Shown: positions 14,959 to 22,974 of the stretch, piece after piece
Position numbering within the stretch: the first letter of the stretch is position 1
Layout: each line of letters opens with the position of its first letter
Virus record (IMG/VR): IMGVR_UViG_3300046833_000025
Coordinates: 1 to 36,905 of that record
Strand: one strand, 5' to 3'
Source: a virus
Lineage: Duplodnaviria; Caudoviricetes
Length of the DNA: 36,905 nt
The notes under the pieces: generated by a model
The model's database searches: none
What the model saw: only the letters and a program-made list of their open reading frames with translations
What the model was told of the DNA's origin: nothing
Program-made: the position numbers and the translations under genes

Positions 14959-16203
14959 GTGCGAGATCTCGTGGCGGAAAAGCAGTATACGGAAGCTCTC
15001 GACGGCCTGCGACTGCTCGCACAGCGTGATCTGCTGTCCTGGTGGAAGCAGACCGAGCACCTCGCCTGGGCAGACCAGTTGAAGCTCATGGAGGAGCCCT
15101 TCGCCGAAATCGTCCGCACCTACGGTGAGCAGGCGGCGTACTCAGCGGCCGACTACCTGTTCCTTCAGCGCAGCCTCTCGGACTCGCTGAGGGGCCTGGA
15201 GTACCCGGAGACGGCGGACCCGGTCGCCTTCGAGCAGGCACGGTCCTCCTACCGCTGGGCGATGAACACCACGAAGACCGCGGCTGCCGAGGACGGGACG
15301 ATCATCGCGGACCGGGTTGCGGCGCTGAACAAGCTGGCGGGAATCACCAACCGGCTCGTCGTAAGCCCCGCACGCAACACCGTCGAAAACGCCGTGGCGA
15401 AGGCCGGCACCCGCTACGCGAGAGTGCCCGAACCGGCTGCCTGCTCGTTCTGCCTCATGCTCGGTTCCAGAGGAGCTGTCTACAGCAAGAAGACAGTGCT
15501 CAAGGACTCCGGCATGGGGAAGTACCACGACAACTGCAGATGCCTCGGAATCGAGTGCGAAGGAGATCACGACCTCCCGAAGATCAACCAGGAGCTGCAG
15601 CAACTCTGGAAGGACACCGCTGACGACTACGGGGACACCCCGACGATCGAAATCTTCGGGGAGGCACTGCACCGGCAGCGTGACGGAACGACCCCACCGT
15701 GGATCCCCATCGACGCCAGGCGCATCAACCAGGCACCGGGCAAGGACCGCGGCCCACTCGGCAGCGTGCTCTCCGTGGACGAGATCGAGCAGAAAAGGCT
15801 CTACGGAACACCGTCAACCCTGCCGGACACTCCCCGCAACGCCAAGGACCAGAAAGTCTGGGACCAGGAGCAGAAAGCCATCGACTGGCTCTACGCAGCC
15901 GGCGCCCGCGACATCCGACGGGTCGGCCTCGGCAGTGAAATCGGAGAGCCGATCAAGACCCCCGACATCGTGATCGACGGACAACACCCCACCGACATCA
16001 AGACGGTCGGGGTCCAGCGGATGAACGACCAGTCACGAAAGGGCGCGAAGCAGTCCCGACAGCTCGTCTTCGACGTCCGCGGAGACCCGGCGTCAGCAGC
16101 AGAGATCGACAGCGCCATCCGCCGGACAGTCAGAAACGAAGGCGACCGGCTGGACCGTATACTGGTGATCACTGACCAGCAGCCATACATCTGGGAGAGG
16201 TGA
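14959..16203 (+). CDS. Minor head / MuF-like protein with C-terminal PD-(D/E)XK (CdiA-type) nuclease domain
   Basis: Position between portal and scaffold; RYARVPEPAACSFCLMLGSRGAVY...YHDNCRC. C-terminal E...KTPDIVIDG..TDIKT...KGAKQ..LVFD. Confidence 0.8.
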   Translation: MRDLVAEKQYTEALDGLRLLAQRDLLSWWKQTEHLAWADQLKLMEEPFAEIVRTYGEQAAYSAADYLFLQRSLSDSLRGLEYPETADPVAFEQARSSYRWAMNTTKTAAAEDGTIIADRVAALNKLAGITNRLVVSPARNTVENAVAKAGTRYARVPEPAACSFCLMLGSRGAVYSKKTVLKDSGMGKYHDNCRCLGIECEGDHDLPKINQELQQLWKDTADDYGDTPTIEIFGEALHRQRDGTTPPWIPIDARRINQAPGKDRGPLGSVLSVDEIEQKRLYGTPSTLPDTPRNAKDQKVWDQEQKAIDWLYAAGARDIRRVGLGSEIGEPIKTPDIVIDGQHPTDIKTVGVQRMNDQSRKGAKQSRQLVFDVRGDPASAAEIDSAIRRTVRNEGDRLDRILVITDQQPYIWER

Positions 16204-16206
16204 ACA

Positions 16207-16557
16207 ATGTCAGTCACACCGAGTATCGAGATCATCGAAGGACCGCGGACCGCAGCAGAAGCACGAGCCATGCTGGACCGCCTCGTCCCGACCGCCGACC
16301 AGGGCTGGTACCTCATCGCCGGCAGTCCGGCGGCCGTCTACGACGAGGACGAGGATGCCGTACTGAGTATCGAGATCAACACCCTCGAAGACACTGTCAC
16401 CGCCCAGTTCCAGGACCTGTTCGACAACCTCTGTGAGGCGACCGACTGGCACATCCGTCTCGACTGGGACGGGCCCGACGAGTGGCCCGACTTCCCCTAC
16501 ACGTCGAAGGACAGATCCCCAGGACAGCAGGCCCAGGACCTCTGGCCCGCAGCCTGA
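16207..16557 (+). CDS. Acidic small protein, putative immunity protein
   Basis: GGAGAGG RBS, starts 3 nt after the toxin-bearing gene, 116 aa, very D/E-rich; not a core head gene. Confidence 0.6.
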   Translation: MSVTPSIEIIEGPRTAAEARAMLDRLVPTADQGWYLIAGSPAAVYDEDEDAVLSIEINTLEDTVTAQFQDLFDNLCEATDWHIRLDWDGPDEWPDFPYTSKDRSPGQQAQDLWPAA

Positions 16558-16573
16558 TCAACACCAACATCTC

Positions 16574-16607
16574 ACACCCGGCCCGCCGCCCACGGCGCGC
16601 CGGGTGT
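16574..16607 (+). terminator. GC-rich hairpin (terminator or processing site)
   Basis: ACACCCGGC/GCCGGGTGT outer stem with CGCCG/CGGCG inner stem; no clear U-tract. Confidence 0.5.
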
Positions 16608-16617
16608 CGTCATTCAC

Positions 16618-16718
16618 GGAGGGGCATCCGGCGCAGGTCGCCGGGCCGGGATAGCGTCCCGGCGCACAGGCTCGGGGAGAACGCCTGTGTGAGGTTCGAG
16701 TCCTCGCCCGCTCCACCA
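16618..16718 (+). tRNA. Non-canonical tRNA-Sec-like (8/4-type) RNA, anticodon AGC, encoded CCA
   Basis: Hand fold: GGAGGGGC-AT-CCGGCG/CAGGT/CGCCGG-GCCGGG/ATAGCGT/CCCGGC-GCACAGGC/11 nt/GCCTGTGT-GAGG/TTCGAGT/CCTC-GCCCGCTCC-A-CCA. Confidence 0.8.
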
Positions 16719-16750
16719 ACCCCGCGCCCTGGAGGTGTCGGGGTCTTGTT
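16719..16750 (+). terminator. Hairpin immediately after the tRNA-like gene
   Basis: ACCCCG...CGGGGT stem followed by CTTGTTGT. Confidence 0.5.
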
Positions 16751-16784
16751 GTATCCACCCCGTTGTTCCCCTGGAGGAGAACTC

Positions 16785-17354
16785 ATGTCCACCATCACTG
16801 GTGCCACCGGCCAGGAGCCGGCACCGACCACAGGGCCCGACACCGGGTCCGACTCCACCGACAAGGCCACCACCCCGGCCCCCAGCGCCGGCGCCAAGCC
16901 CGGCACTGAGGACCAGGGCGAGGCGGACGACGGTGACCTGTCGCCTGATGACCTTCGCGCAGCACTGACCAAAGCGCGCAAGGAGGCCGCCCGCTACCGC
17001 ACGGAGCGCAATGAGCTGCGTCCGCTGGCGGAGAAGGCACGGCAGGTCGAGGAGGCCAACAAGACCGAGCTGGAGAAGGCACAGGAGAAGCTCGCCGCCC
17101 TGGAGGCGGAAGCGACCGAGGCCAAGCAGTCAGCTCTGCGCTCCCGTGTGGCGTCCGCCAAGGGCGTCCCCGAGTCCCTGCTGTCCGGCACGACCGAGGA
17201 GGAGCTCACGGCTGCGGCCGACGCTCTGCTCGAGTTCGCCGGCACCGCCAAGGAGCAGAGCAAGTCCAAGGGCGCCCCGTACGTCCCGTCTGTCGGACGC
17301 AGTTCCGGCGGGGACGACCGAGACTCCATGGCCCGCCAGATCCTCGGACTCTGA
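16785..17354 (+). CDS. Capsid scaffolding protein
   Basis: GGAGGAG RBS before ATG 16785; LTKARKEAARYR, EEANKTELEKAQE, GVPESLLSGTTEEELTAAADAL; precedes the capsid gene. Confidence 0.88.
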   Translation: MSTITGATGQEPAPTTGPDTGSDSTDKATTPAPSAGAKPGTEDQGEADDGDLSPDDLRAALTKARKEAARYRTERNELRPLAEKARQVEEANKTELEKAQEKLAALEAEATEAKQSALRSRVASAKGVPESLLSGTTEEELTAAADALLEFAGTAKEQSKSKGAPYVPSVGRSSGGDDRDSMARQILGL

Positions 17355-20672: not shown

Positions 20673-22178
20673 ATGACGGAATCTCGTAGCGACATCATCG
20701 TCGCCTACGGCGACTCCCAGACCGAGGGGTTCAGCTGGGGCCATCGACTCCCGCTGCTGTCCTCCACGATCAAGGAGACGGTGAACCGCGGCCTCTCCGG
20801 TCAGGAGGCCGGCACCGTCGCGGTGAGGCAGGGAGGCATCGTCCTCTCGACAACCACCGCGGTGGAAATCACCAGTGCTGAACCGGTGATCGTCGGCCTG
20901 CAGGCGGACAGGACGCCCTGCAACATCCGGTCCTCCTCATCGACAATGCCGATGGAGCTGTCCGGGGAGCGAGGGACACTCACCATCCTCACGCAGGCGG
21001 ACACGCCGGAGGGCATGCCGGTCTCGTCCCGGAGCAATGGCACGTTCTGCGGGCACTTCGTCCCGGATACTGCCCCTGCCGGACCGGTGACGGTTGCGGC
21101 CGGTACCGAGTTCGTTTCCCAGGACGTCGTCGATCACCCGGAGTACGCCGAATGCACCCAGATCATCTGGGTCGGCGGCAACGACTCGGCGTTCGCCGGG
21201 GCAACCCGGGTCACCGGCGTCGTGTCCGCGGTCCAGGCCATGGTCGATCGACTGAAGGCGACTGTTGACCAGCCGCGGTTCCTCGTCGCGGCCCGCACCT
21301 CGGGCCCGTCGGAGGTCACCGGCACAGCTGGCCACACGACGGCGGTCGATCAGCATGCCGCGCTCGCCGCCGCATTCCCGGACAACACAATCGACATCCG
21401 GGGTCACATGATCGCCCACGGCATGCAGACCCTCGGGCTGACACCGACCGCTGACGATCAGACGGCTATCGACGGGGACACCGTGCCCCGCAGCCTGACC
21501 TCGGACGGACTGCACTACTCGACCCAAACCCGCGAGCAGGTGCTCGCGCCGTTCATCATCTCCGAGCTCGCGGCTCGGGGATGGGCCACCGAAACAGAAG
21601 GAGAGGTGATTCCTGTGGCCGAATACAGCCCCAACACGTGGGTCAACGACTCCGCCCCCGACCTGGAGGCGGACAACCTCAACAACATCGAGGCAGGCAT
21701 CCAGCAGGCACTCGAGGAAGTCAAGGCCGCGACGCAGGGTGTCGCGGACCTCCGGGAGAACAAGGCGGACGCCACGGCGCTCACTTCCGGTCTCGCGGGG
21801 AAACTCACTGCACTGCCGACCACGCAGAAGAACAAGATCTACGGCACCGGTATTAACGGTGAGTTCGCTACCTACAACTACGTGTCGTCCGGTGCTGACG
21901 CGAACAGTGTCGCGGCCAGGTCCTCGTCCGGCAACGTTGCTGTGGCCCTGGTGCCTTCCGCTGACATGCACGCCACGTCGAAGAAGTACGTGGACGATGG
22001 TCTCGCGAAGAAGGCGGACACGACCGCGATCCCGGACGTCTCCGGCCTGGCAGCGAAGGCCGACATCCCCGACGTGTCCGGTCTCGCGAAGACCACCGAC
22101 GTGCCGACGAAGGCCGACTTCGACGCACTCGCCGCCCGAGTCGCCGCACTCGAAACCCCGGCCGCGCCCGAGGCGTAG
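20673..22178 (+). CDS. SGNH/GDSL hydrolase fused to a fibre-like C-terminal region
   Basis: YGDSQT, NRGLSG, WVGGND and DGLHY catalytic blocks; then YSPNTWVN..DLEADNLNNIEAGI, HATSKKYVD and IPDVSGLA repeats. Confidence 0.8.
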   Translation: MTESRSDIIVAYGDSQTEGFSWGHRLPLLSSTIKETVNRGLSGQEAGTVAVRQGGIVLSTTTAVEITSAEPVIVGLQADRTPCNIRSSSSTMPMELSGERGTLTILTQADTPEGMPVSSRSNGTFCGHFVPDTAPAGPVTVAAGTEFVSQDVVDHPEYAECTQIIWVGGNDSAFAGATRVTGVVSAVQAMVDRLKATVDQPRFLVAARTSGPSEVTGTAGHTTAVDQHAALAAAFPDNTIDIRGHMIAHGMQTLGLTPTADDQTAIDGDTVPRSLTSDGLHYSTQTREQVLAPFIISELAARGWATETEGEVIPVAEYSPNTWVNDSAPDLEADNLNNIEAGIQQALEEVKAATQGVADLRENKADATALTSGLAGKLTALPTTQKNKIYGTGINGEFATYNYVSSGADANSVAARSSSGNVAVALVPSADMHATSKKYVDDGLAKKADTTAIPDVSGLAAKADIPDVSGLAKTTDVPTKADFDALAARVAALETPAAPEA

Positions 22179-22186
22179 CCGCACCC

Positions 22187-22222
22187 GGGCCCGAGGACTC
22201 TCGACGGGGTCACCTCGGGCCC
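22187..22222 (+). terminator. Hairpin upstream of the tail assembly chaperone gene
   Basis: GGGCCCGAGG/CCTCGGGCCC 10-bp stem. Confidence 0.5.
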
Positions 22223-22294
22223 CCTCTGCTTCACCCCTGACCCCGTCCCTACTTCCACCATCACCGCGGCGACCGCCGCAGACAGGACCCCGTC

Positions 22295-22615
22295 ATGCTC
22301 GAGAAGTTCCACTTCCACTCCGACGCCACCGGCGCCGACATCACCGTCCCCTGGCAGGAGGACTGCATCACCTACGGCTTCCTGGAGGACAACTCCGGAA
22401 GGTCCGAGCAGGAGATGACCACGGCCATGATCAAGGCCGCAACCGTCGACCGCGGCGACACCACCTCCCACGACCAGATCCGAGCCCTCCCACTCCGCGA
22501 GTTCCAGGAGTTCACCGAAGCCTGGGTCAACGGCGACCAGACTGTGGGGGTCGCCTCCCTGGGGGAATCCTCGGCCTCCACCGATGGCTCCGAGCAGACA
22601 CCGCCCACCGCCTAG
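22295..22615 (+). CDS. Tail assembly chaperone (G, short form)
   Basis: AGGA RBS; ends ...ASLGES; lies upstream of the tape measure gene. Confidence 0.85.
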   Translation: MLEKFHFHSDATGADITVPWQEDCITYGFLEDNSGRSEQEMTTAMIKAATVDRGDTTSHDQIRALPLREFQEFTEAWVNGDQTVGVASLGESSASTDGSEQTPPTA

Positions 22616-22974
22616 CCCTGGAGGCTGACCTGATCCGGGTCGGTCTCCGCCTGCGGTGGCTGGCCGACGGCACGGACCGCCTGAACTGGCGGGACATCTG
22701 GGTGATGGTCGACCAGGCTGACGAAAACTCAGCGGTGTACGCATCCCAGGTCGGCGACGAGGACCGCCTCTGGAACCCCGACCGTCAACTCATGGCATCC
22801 ATGGTCGACATGCTCACCTGGCAGGTCTGGTCGAAGTCAAAGGACGGGCAGAAGAACCGCAACCGGCCCAAGCCCATCCCACGACCCGGGGTCACCGAGC
22901 ACGAGAAGAAGACCATCGGCGGGAAGAAGTCCGCCACCTCCGCCGCCAACGTCGCAGCCCTCCTCGGCATGTGA
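22561..22974 (+). CDS. Tail assembly chaperone -1 frameshift extension (GT form)
   Basis: GGGGGAA at 22561-22567. The -1 frame gives ALEADLIRVGLRL...LNWRDIW...NRPKPIPRPG, typical of actinophage T segments. Confidence 0.85.
   Translation, partial: GGILGLHRWLRADTAHRLALEADLIRVGLRLRWLADGTDRLNWRDIWVMVDQADENSAVYASQVGDEDRLWNPDRQLMASMVDMLTWQVWSKSKDGQKNRNRPKPIPRPGVTEHEKKTIGGKKSATSAANVAALLGM

What the first reader, a model, noticed from the sequence alone, without database searches (positions are those of the whole stretch)
16618..16718. tRNA-Sec-shaped RNA with an AGC anticodon and mismatched identity elements
Seen: a 101-nt cloverleaf. It has an 8-bp acceptor stem with one bulged G, a 2-nt linker, a 6-bp D stem, and a 6-bp anticodon stem with loop A-U-AGC-G-U. 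It also has an 8-bp variable stem, a 4-bp T stem with a TTCGAGT loop, discriminator A and encoded CCA. Established: the 6-bp D stem, long variable arm and extended acceptor stem are tRNA-Sec features, and 8/4 'allo-tRNAs' have been described. AlaRS needs G3:U70, whereas this RNA has A3-U70. A34 anticodons other than tRNA-Arg are rare in bacteria. Inference: it is neither a Sec tRNA (no UCA) nor a normal Ala tRNA. It could be charged with Ser or Leu via the long arm and misread Ala codons, or act as an uncharged decoy against tRNA-targeting enzymes.
Basis: partly seen in the sequence, partly recalled or inferred. Interest (0 to 1): 0.85.

Follow-up and report, generated by a model that had tools for sequence, protein, structure and literature searches.

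The report
Phage alanine-tRNA mimic beside tRNase toxin
A temperate phage encodes an intact, selenocysteine-tRNA-shaped RNA with an alanine anticodon and an alanine-tRNA-like tail directly after a virion-type toxin and its predicted antitoxin, and it likely stands in for the host alanine tRNA that this toxin is predicted to cut.

Summary
The cloverleaf is real: 32 of 32 stem pairs form, z = -3.8, Rfam tRNA-Sec 37 bits (below cut-off). It is an 8/4 allo-tRNA-type RNA on a body most like actinobacterial tRNA-Sec, not a Sec tRNA (no UCA, no G73). It lies in a Corynebacterium-like prophage straight after a MuF/VG15 protein with a CdiA_C toxin domain and a predicted immunity protein. The domain's best solved match is CdiA-CT Bp1026b, which cuts tRNA-Ala in the acceptor stem. 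Beyond AGC, the RNA carries two more alanine signatures: A32-U38 and the 3' end GCUCCA-CCA; only G3·U70 is missing. Related prophages with another toxin hold an 8/4 tRNA-Ser(CGA) in the same slot behind a homologous leader. Best reading (0.4): a toxin-proof stand-in that decodes Ala codons, most likely carrying Ser. Against: 0 of 31 assessable kin with the same toxin family have such a tRNA, no second AGC homologue was found, and expression and charging are untested. Kin carry an unannotated ~50-nt anticodon-less tRNA mimic at this site, so a processing role is a live rival.

The parts
14959..16203 (+). MuF-like VG15 head protein with C-terminal CdiA_C (PD-(D/E)xK) toxin domain, predicted tRNase; E304, D336, D346, K348
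   Evidence: Pfam VG15 E 1e-32 and CdiA_C 34 bits over cut-off 26.6; model pLDDT 95.5; best structure 4G6V, Foldseek E 1.2e-4, VIA Z 10.8, rmsd 3.5, 121 aligned; E, PD and K invariant in 12 homologues
16207..16557 (+). Predicted immunity protein (116 aa, no Pfam family)
   Evidence: Homologues follow the same toxin in kin; complex score 0.83, best of 3 controls 0.00, interface covers the catalytic residues
16558..16617 (+). Leader with GC-rich hairpin (about 16574-16607), homologous to the leader of the tRNA-Ser(CGA) in related prophages
   Evidence: Local scores 40-41 against L073, L299, L131, 0 of 1000 shuffles each; 10-16 (not significant) against three kin without tRNA; fold
16618..16718 (+). 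8/4 allo-tRNA-type RNA on a Sec-like body with Ala-type anticodon loop and 3' end
16651..16657 (+). Anticodon loop A32 U33 A34 G35 C36 G37 U38
   Evidence: sequence; 5 of 7 identical to the AUGGCAU loop of tRNA-Ala(GGC) in G011 and G020
16710..16718 (+). 3' end GCUCCA-CCA (bulged G, C69 U70 C71 C72, A73, CCA), as in tRNA-Ala
16719..16754 (+). Terminator-like hairpin and T-rich tail
   Evidence: 2 sites found, 0.5 expected; similar ACCCC...GGGGT hairpin before the scaffold gene in kin
16785..17354 (+). Head scaffolding protein (RBS GGAGGAG 16773-16779), downstream neighbour
   Evidence: PHROG 1793 E 1e-27

Best explanation
The RNA is an intact non-canonical (8/4) tRNA gene lying in the phage's toxin-immunity cassette, and it likely serves as a toxin-resistant stand-in for host tRNA-Ala. 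Shown: the fold, the position, the Ala-type loop and 3' end, the missing G3·U70, and the toxin's family and fold. Inferred steps: (1) the MuF toxin is delivered with the virion or made late and cuts host tRNA-Ala in the acceptor stem, like its closest solved relative; (2) the RNA is co-transcribed with the immunity gene, cut out by RNase P and 3' trimming to the encoded CCA, and bounded by the terminator-like hairpin; (3) A3-U70 plus the adjacent bulge make it a poor substrate for the toxin; (4) its 12-bp branch, which lacks the Sec pairs G49·U65/C50-G64 that reject EF-Tu, goes through EF-Tu, and A34 lets one tRNA read GCU and probably other GCN codons; (5) lacking G3·U70 it is most likely charged by SerRS through the long arm (Ser at Ala codons, my odds about 45% if translated; Ala 25%, Leu 15%, little charge 15%). 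It would thus cover the window of time before, or the leak past, protein immunity.
For: Toxin: PF18451 above cut-off; PF18451 is the family of CdiA-CT Bp1026b (PMC9990079 table passage); 4G6V is the only Foldseek hit at E<=0.001 and the only VIA hit at Z>=8 among 48,161 chains; Bp1026b cleaves tRNA-Ala at the acceptor stem (PMC9086364 passages). RNA: among 985 distinct ARAGORN tRNAs in my 596 loci, the end GCTCCA occurs in 21 of 58 Ala (12 of 47 after dropping the 11 fetched with an Ala pattern) and 1 of 927 others; A32-U38 in 5 of 58 Ala (all GGC) and 6 of 927 others; neither occurs in the 17 Sec or 12 8/4-Ser comparators. A32-U38 tunes tRNA-Ala(GGC) decoding (PMC7293025 passage), a ribosome-side feature that an acceptor-stem decoy would not need. 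Slot: a normal-looking 8/4 tRNA-Ser(CGA), G73, sits after a different MuF toxin and immunity gene behind a homologous leader in 2 contigs, 3 copies, one copy travelling with an orphan toxin-tip/immunity cassette; a model built from the window RNA alone finds them. 8/4 tRNAs work with EF-Tu and insert Ser or Ala regardless of anticodon (PMC5389517). Precedent: T5 tRNA-Lys resists PARIS (PMC11464382 abstract).
Against: 0 of 31 assessable kin loci with the same toxin family carry a full tRNA (32 examined, L247 too short; most are near-identical phages), so the RNA is dispensable for this toxin. A protein antitoxin is already present. No second AGC/NGC homologue: none in 117 viral pattern hits, 120 of about 310 hits of another pattern, or 151 Mycobacteriales genomes; so no covariation within its own lineage. 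The toxin is only 14-21% identical to Bp1026b; the related E479 toxin cuts T-loops instead, so the target is a guess. G73 is the strongest SerRS element in tRNA-Sec and A73 favours LeuRS; G3·U70 is the major AlaRS element; the acceptor bulge and G37 could impair use. Ser or Leu at Ala codons would be toxic if strongly expressed (allo-tRNA induction killed E. coli). The Ala signatures were noticed after the toxin match (post hoc). No evidence of transcription.
Confidence: 0.4

Rival explanations
1. Cis-acting tRNA-like processing signal: the cloverleaf is cut out by RNase P/Z to split the late transcript between the low-copy toxin-immunity genes and the high-copy scaffold-capsid genes, doing the job of the ~50-nt anticodon-less element that kin have at this site.
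For: A T-arm-in-acceptor element precedes the same hairpin and scaffold gene in at least 12 kin loci, with and without toxin domains; T stem has compensatory changes; weak mascRNA likeness (E 1). The window has no separate copy: the best hit of the element's model in the window is the tRNA's own T arm (15 bits, E 0.81).
Against: Many kin (L223-L251, most distant phages) have neither element; L073, L131, L299 have both tRNA and element, so they are separate things; it does not explain the Ala-type loop and tail.
Confidence: 0.2
2. Uncharged decoy (RNA antitoxin): the Ala-like 3' strand binds or soaks up the toxin, while A3-U70 keeps AlaRS and the ribosome away.
For: The 3' strand that the toxin family attacks is tRNA-Ala-like; identity sets for Ala, Ser and Leu are each incomplete; some allo-tRNAs near toxin-antitoxin genes were translation-inactive (PMC5389517).
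Against: A tuned anticodon loop (U33, R37, A32-U38, NGC) is not needed for an acceptor-stem decoy; a protein antitoxin exists; the slot homologue is a cognate tRNA-Ser.
Confidence: 0.15
3. A translating or mistranslating phage allo-tRNA unrelated to the neighbouring toxin (for example against a host tRNA-cutting defence, or deliberate Ser-for-Ala mistranslation as with tRNA-ProA); the junction is simply a tolerated insertion site under the late promoter.
For: 8/4 tRNA-Ser are common in actinophage tRNA clusters; AGC-anticodon mistranslators exist in Streptomyces (PMC10404621 passages); same-toxin kin lack the tRNA.
Against: Leaves the match between an Ala-mimic and a tRNA-Ala-nuclease-like neighbour to chance; the orphan cassette in L131 keeps tRNA and toxin tip together.
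Confidence: 0.15
4. Non-functional relic of a captured selC or allo-tRNA, recently inactivated.
For: 5' 27 nt most like actinobacterial selC and 13 nt from T loop to discriminator as in tRNA-Sec; acceptor bulge; single lineage; ARAGORN-negative.
Against: No mismatch in 32 pairs despite only 57-68 identical positions to the 17 Sec genes; changes from Sec (loop, position 68, 73) run towards tRNA-Ala; mid-head-module site, not an attachment site; the orphan copy in L131 shows what decay looks like.
Confidence: 0.1

Closest known systems
(8/4) allo-tRNAs (Mukai et al. 2017, PMC5389517)
   Same: 8-bp acceptor + 4-bp T stem, 6-bp D and anticodon stems, long variable arm, non-serine anticodon, lying near toxin genes
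   Different: A73 without G3·U70, acceptor bulge, 5-nt D loop, 101 nt; actinobacterial prophage; the only AGC rows in that paper's table (11 rows of sheet 1, all 50 'AGC' places read) are short E-loop tRNA1 with U73; the neighbour here is a polymorphic virion toxin with a predicted matching target
Actinobacterial tRNA-Sec (selC; Rfam RF01852)
   Same: GGAGG start, AU linker, CCGGC..GGU..CCGG D arm, 13 nt from T loop to discriminator, AGGC/GCCU core of variable arm; best overall pairwise scores
   Different: No UCA, A73 not G73, 12-bp not 13-bp branch, lacks G49·U65/C50-G64, 37 bits vs gathering 47; no sel genes seen in the window
Phage (8/4) tRNA-Ser (L073/L299 slot homologue; Myrna, FlowerPower, prophi86-1, CcrPW)
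   Same: GRGG/CCUC T stem, CGG/CCG anticodon stem core, same leader and slot in L073/L131/L299
   Different: Those have Ser anticodons, G (or U) 73, shorter D stem with AA linker, no bulge
tRNA-ProA of Streptomyces (PMC10404621)
   Same: AGC anticodon on a non-Ala body, mistranslation of Ala codons
   Different: Short-arm Pro body, C1:G72, own synthetase ProRSx; none here
MuF polymorphic toxin-immunity pairs (PMC5576092) with a CdiA-CT Bp1026b-type tRNase (PF18451, PDB 4G6V)
   Same: Portal-MuF toxin-small immunity ORF-scaffold order in a temperate phage; PD-(D/E)xK fold
   Different: N-terminus is VG15 (PF25310), not PF04233; the passages read mention no tRNA gene as a cassette member
T5 tRNA-Lys against PARIS (PMC11464382)
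   Same: Phage tRNA that replaces a tRNA cut by a nuclease
   Different: There the nuclease is a host/prophage defence and the tRNA is canonical and cognate; here the toxin is the phage's own and the tRNA body is foreign

Membership tests
(8/4) allo-tRNA | 12-bp acceptor branch of 8+4 | tested here: met
   (with one bulged G in the acceptor 3' strand)
(8/4) allo-tRNA | Sec-like long D stem, 6-bp anticodon stem, long variable arm | tested here: met
   D loop 5 nt rather than 4
(8/4) allo-tRNA | G73 or U73 (Ser type) or G3·U70 (Ala type), as in most members | tested here: not met
   A73 and A3-U70; described as typical, not universal, in PMC5389517
(8/4) allo-tRNA | Processed, charged and delivered by EF-Tu | not testable with these tools
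   only contigs available
tRNA-Sec (selC) | UCA anticodon (or Sec-recoding variant) and G73 | tested here: not met
   AGC and A73; all 17 Sec genes fetched have CUUCAA loops and G73
tRNA-Sec (selC) | 13-bp branch with G49·U65 and C50-G64 | tested here: not met
   8/5 register needs two mismatches and costs 6.5 kcal/mol
tRNA-Sec (selC) | Rfam RF01852 gathering score 47 | tested here: not met
   37 bits
tRNA-Sec (selC) | 6-bp D stem for SelA | tested here: met
   loop 5 nt
bacterial tRNA-Ala | G3·U70 | tested here: not met
   A3-U70
bacterial tRNA-Ala | A73, G2-C71, G4-C69, NGC anticodon | tested here: met
   sequence; list from PMC9976931 table 1
bacterial tRNA-Ala | Short-arm 7/5 body | tested here: not met
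selC* tRNA-Cys | U73 and GCA/UCA anticodon, T-stem bulge 51a | tested here: not met
   A73, AGC, bulge in acceptor
CdiA_C / Bp1026b-type tRNase (neighbour gene) | PF18451 over cut-off and PD-(D/E)xK fold with E, D, D, K | tested here: met
CdiA_C / Bp1026b-type tRNase (neighbour gene) | Cleaves tRNA-Ala acceptor stem | not testable with these tools
   14-21% identity to 4G6V chain A
MuF toxin-immunity pair | Head-module protein with toxin tip followed by small cognate immunity ORF | tested here: met
   (binding predicted, not shown); tips are polymorphic in kin

The most novel reading that the evidence does not exclude
Temperate actinophages add a third, RNA component to MuF toxin-immunity cassettes: a non-canonical tRNA matched to the tRNA their own toxin destroys. 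Here a tRNA-Sec body has been rebuilt into a tRNA-Ala surrogate that reads Ala codons while lacking G3·U70, so a phage would deliberately mistranslate (Ser for Ala) or use a new route to Ala identity in order to survive its own tRNase.
Probability: 0.3. Interest if true: 0.9.

Novelty: new variant of a known kind. Interest (0 to 1): 0.7.

Why it matters
Allo-tRNAs with non-cognate anticodons have had no known natural job since 2017; their link to toxin genes was an anecdote. This case pairs one with a toxin whose likely target matches its anticodon, loop and tail, which makes the question testable with three short genes in a laboratory strain. If right, it shows self-immunity by tRNA replacement, regulated mistranslation by a phage, and conversion of a Sec tRNA scaffold to EF-Tu use. 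It also shows that ARAGORN and genome-wide Rfam scans miss such RNAs, and it uncovered an unannotated mascRNA-like element before scaffold genes.

Tried and rejected
Homologue searches that found no second copy of this RNA: blastn against 50,697 phages (only short chance or T-arm hits); 5'-half pattern in genome contigs, 44 hits, none tRNA-like; leader pattern, 120 of about 340 stretches, only own copies and L131; two architecture patterns in viral contigs; model R1 over 151 Mycobacteriales genomes (no positive control among them). These are samples, not proof of absence. Toxin-domain sequence searches found only the protein's own cluster, nothing in phages and no solved structure by sequence; structure search was needed. 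Capsid search of 301 genomes at E<=1e-100 was empty; a PorB marker did not identify Corynebacterium handles (0 of 5), so no genus-wide screen was run. Runs labelled metatranscriptomic hold the region only as long flat contigs, so they say nothing on transcription or ends. No sigma-70-type promoter in 15900-17000. The 290-aa ORF 16482-17354 through the RNA is the scaffold frame; the RBS and the called 189-aa protein put the start at 16785. MAFFT alignments of the tRNAs (A2, A3, A8) were poor and not used; covariation counts (21 of 32 pairs change on both sides) come from an alignment fitted to the model and across different tRNA types, so they support the fold class only. Sequence-only profiles favoured 8/4 Ser (8.1 bits, T arm) over Sec (0.6 bits) while pairwise scores favoured Sec: origin is mixed or unresolved. 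The toxin of L073/L263 has no Pfam call; the Atlas points to BECR-type RNases at 0.86, a lead only. Earlier scan findings: nothing in 3 look-ups. Mukai 2016 (Sec tRNAs with sense anticodons) was not held and might list an AGC case.

Full report
Observation. The 101 nt at 16618-16718 fold as described: -60.6 kcal/mol, z -3.77, 0 of 200 shuffles as stable. All 32 pairs are standard (27 G-C, 4 A-U, 1 G-U) and the 8/4 register with G16710 bulged has pair probabilities near 1; the 7/5 and Sec-like 8/5 registers cost 5.5 and 6.5 kcal/mol. ARAGORN and a whole-window Rfam scan see nothing; a local scan gives tRNA-Sec at 37 bits, E 3.7e-6, under the gathering score 47. Identical copies occur in 7 IMG/VR contigs and in all 8 runs laid; they may share the window's source.

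Setting. The window is a 66.5% GC siphovirus-type genome: terminase, portal, a VG15/MuF-like protein (14959-16203), a 116-aa ORF, the RNA, a terminator-like hairpin, scaffold, capsid. Named homologues of the small ORF are from Corynebacterium, and the closest capsid loci carry near-identical copies of them, so the host is likely a Corynebacterium or close kin (inference). The VG15 protein ends in a CdiA_C domain above cut-off. Its model (pLDDT 95.5) matches 4G6V best: Foldseek E 1.2e-4, the only hit at E<=0.001; VIA Z 10.8, rmsd 3.5 over 121 residues, next 5J4A at 7.5. 4G6V is CdiA-CT Bp1026b, which cleaves tRNA-Ala at the acceptor stem; 5J4A (E479) cuts T loops (PMC9086364, passages). PF18451 is listed as the Bp1026b family (PMC9990079, table passage). 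The small ORF is predicted to bind the domain over its catalytic residues: score 0.83, best of 3 controls 0.00, mark reached by 116 of 157 solved complexes and 2 of 215 mismatches, runs agree in at least 95% of contacts, partner pLDDT at least 86; this supports, and does not show, immunity. MuF toxin-immunity pairs in temperate phages are known (PMC5576092, passages).

What the RNA descends from. A model from the window RNA alone picks, in 637 kb of 96 sources, 8/4 tRNAs including those of L299 and L073. A wider model then returned mostly tRNA-Sec and tRNA-Ser from 94 of 151 Mycobacteriales genomes (the best 30 loci were read). Pairwise scores are 57-78 for 17 Sec, 45.5-67 for 12 8/4-Ser, 45-60 for 6 canonical Ser; the first 27 nt are clearly Sec-like, while sequence profiles prefer the 8/4-Ser T arm. 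The comparators were chosen by models containing the query, so this ranks, it does not prove. The body is Sec-like but has lost what makes a Sec tRNA: UCA, G73, the 13-bp branch and the G49·U65/C50-G64 pairs that reject EF-Tu (PMC9976931 passages; PMC7609411 section 4). It fits the 8/4 allo-tRNA class of PMC5389517 (parts 1-4 of 5 read; supplement part 1 and searches), whose members work with EF-Tu, insert Ser or Ala whatever the anticodon, and often lie near toxin-antitoxin genes; no long-arm AGC member is in its table.

Alanine signatures. Host-type tRNA-Ala from 5 of 5 genomes searched end in GCTCCA (10 of 12 matches) or TCTCCA, and two GGC isoacceptors have the loop AUGGCAU. The window RNA ends GCUCCA-CCA and has the loop AUAGCGU. 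Among 985 distinct ARAGORN tRNAs in 596 loci, the GCTCCA end is in 21 of 58 Ala (12 of 47 without the 11 fetched by an Ala pattern) and 1 of 927 others; A32-U38 is in 5 of 58 Ala, all GGC, and 6 of 927 others (some loci were fetched by patterns with CTCC ends). A32-U38 secures accurate decoding by E. coli tRNA-Ala(GGC) (PMC7293025, passage). Of the bacterial Ala set A73, G2-C71, G3·U70, G4-C69 only G3·U70 is missing. These features were noticed after the toxin match.

Kin. Searching by capsid and by the VG15 N-terminus gave the comparison set. L073/L263 and L299 carry an 8/4 tRNA-Ser(CGA), G73, at the same place after a different toxin tip (no Pfam; BECR-like lead) and immunity gene; a second, partly decayed copy sits in an orphan cassette, L131. 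Their 60-nt leaders are homologous to the window's (scores 40-41, 0 of 1000 shuffles) while those of three tRNA-less kin are not. So the slot is a leader-plus-tRNA cassette that follows immunity genes in two lineages. Against a strict link: of 32 kin loci with a CdiA_C-type tip, 31 assessable, none has a full tRNA; 29 of them are one group of close relatives. Many kin instead have a ~50-nt anticodon-less tRNA-like element before the scaffold gene, also where no toxin tip exists; the window lacks a separate copy.

Mechanism. I commit to the stand-in model at 0.4: toxin cuts host tRNA-Ala (inferred from fold); the RNA is processed from the immunity transcript (inferred); A3-U70 and the bulge shield it (inferred; how Bp1026b reads its target was not in the passages seen); EF-Tu delivers it and A34 reads GCU and probably more (wider reading by unmodified A34 is recalled, not from a call); SerRS is the likeliest charger through the long arm and G1-C72/G2-C71, though G73 is missing and A73 suits LeuRS. 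Ser at Ala codons is a mild error (own knowledge), but strong allo-tRNA expression killed E. coli. GCU is only 104 of 1169 Ala codons in 29 phage genes, so codon supplementation alone is a poor reason for an AGC tRNA. Rivals: processing signal 0.2, decoy 0.15, toxin-independent allo-tRNA 0.15, relic 0.1.

Novelty. Each ingredient has precedent: allo-tRNAs near toxin genes (PMC5389517), AGC mistranslators (PMC10404621, passages), nuclease-resistant phage tRNA (PMC11464382, abstract), MuF toxins (PMC5576092). I found no paper on a tRNA gene as part of a MuF cassette or on a Sec-bodied Ala mimic in searches (listings only; open-access library; bioRxiv supplements closed; Mukai 2016 not held). Verdict: new variant of a known kind, interest 0.7; 0.9 if the RNA proves to be matched self-immunity against the phage's own tRNase (probability 0.3). 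Expression, charging and toxin target are all untested.

Noticed in passing
L255:4374-4424, L257:4638-4694, L258, L260, L263:4602-4658, L264, L268, L269, L299, L301, L305, L131; degenerate in L254, L256, L265: Unannotated ~50-nt anticodon-less tRNA-like element (closing stem, small hairpin with GG, 5-bp T arm) just before a terminator-like hairpin and the scaffold gene in Corynebacterium-type prophages, with or without a toxin tip. T stem covaries (5 and 3 of 10 double changes at two pairs); no Rfam family, weak mascRNA hit E 1. Worth its own study.
   Followed up: partly
L073:4167-4255, L299:4466-4553, L131:1917-2005 (-): 8/4 tRNA-Ser(CGA) after a BECR/EndoU-like MuF toxin and immunity gene; a second, partly decayed copy lies in an orphan toxin-tip/immunity/scaffold-stub cassette at the end of the same prophage contig.
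   Followed up: partly
L214:3003-3092, L217:373-461 and 466-555: 8/4 tRNA-Ser genes left unannotated in GenBank phage records (prophi86-1, CcrPW); FlowerPower has an 8/4 tRNA-Ser with A34 (AGA).
   Followed up: no
L555, L556, L557, L558, L568: 8/4 tRNA-Ser in tRNA arrays of Mycobacteriales genomes, three with U73.
   Followed up: no
L570, L572, L574, L576, L583: Actinobacterial tRNA-Sec with C38 (loop CUUCAAC) and a U·C mismatch at the base of the acceptor stem.
   Followed up: no
window 14959-16203 and kin L253-L299: The VG15 protein is a polymorphic toxin carrier: CdiA_C, EndoU, BECR-like and other tips on the same N-terminus. The window's toxin has a one-residue gap at a motif conserved in 11 homologues.
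   Followed up: partly
window 20673-22178: A GDSL-like/tail-fibre-type gene inserted between the major tail protein and the tail assembly chaperones; chaperones 22295-22615 and 21739-22974 look like the usual frameshift pair.
   Followed up: no
window 1-36905: No integrase in the window; its proteins occur on contigs up to 272 kb, so it is probably part of an integrated prophage; runs holding it are labelled ant metagenome.
   Followed up: no
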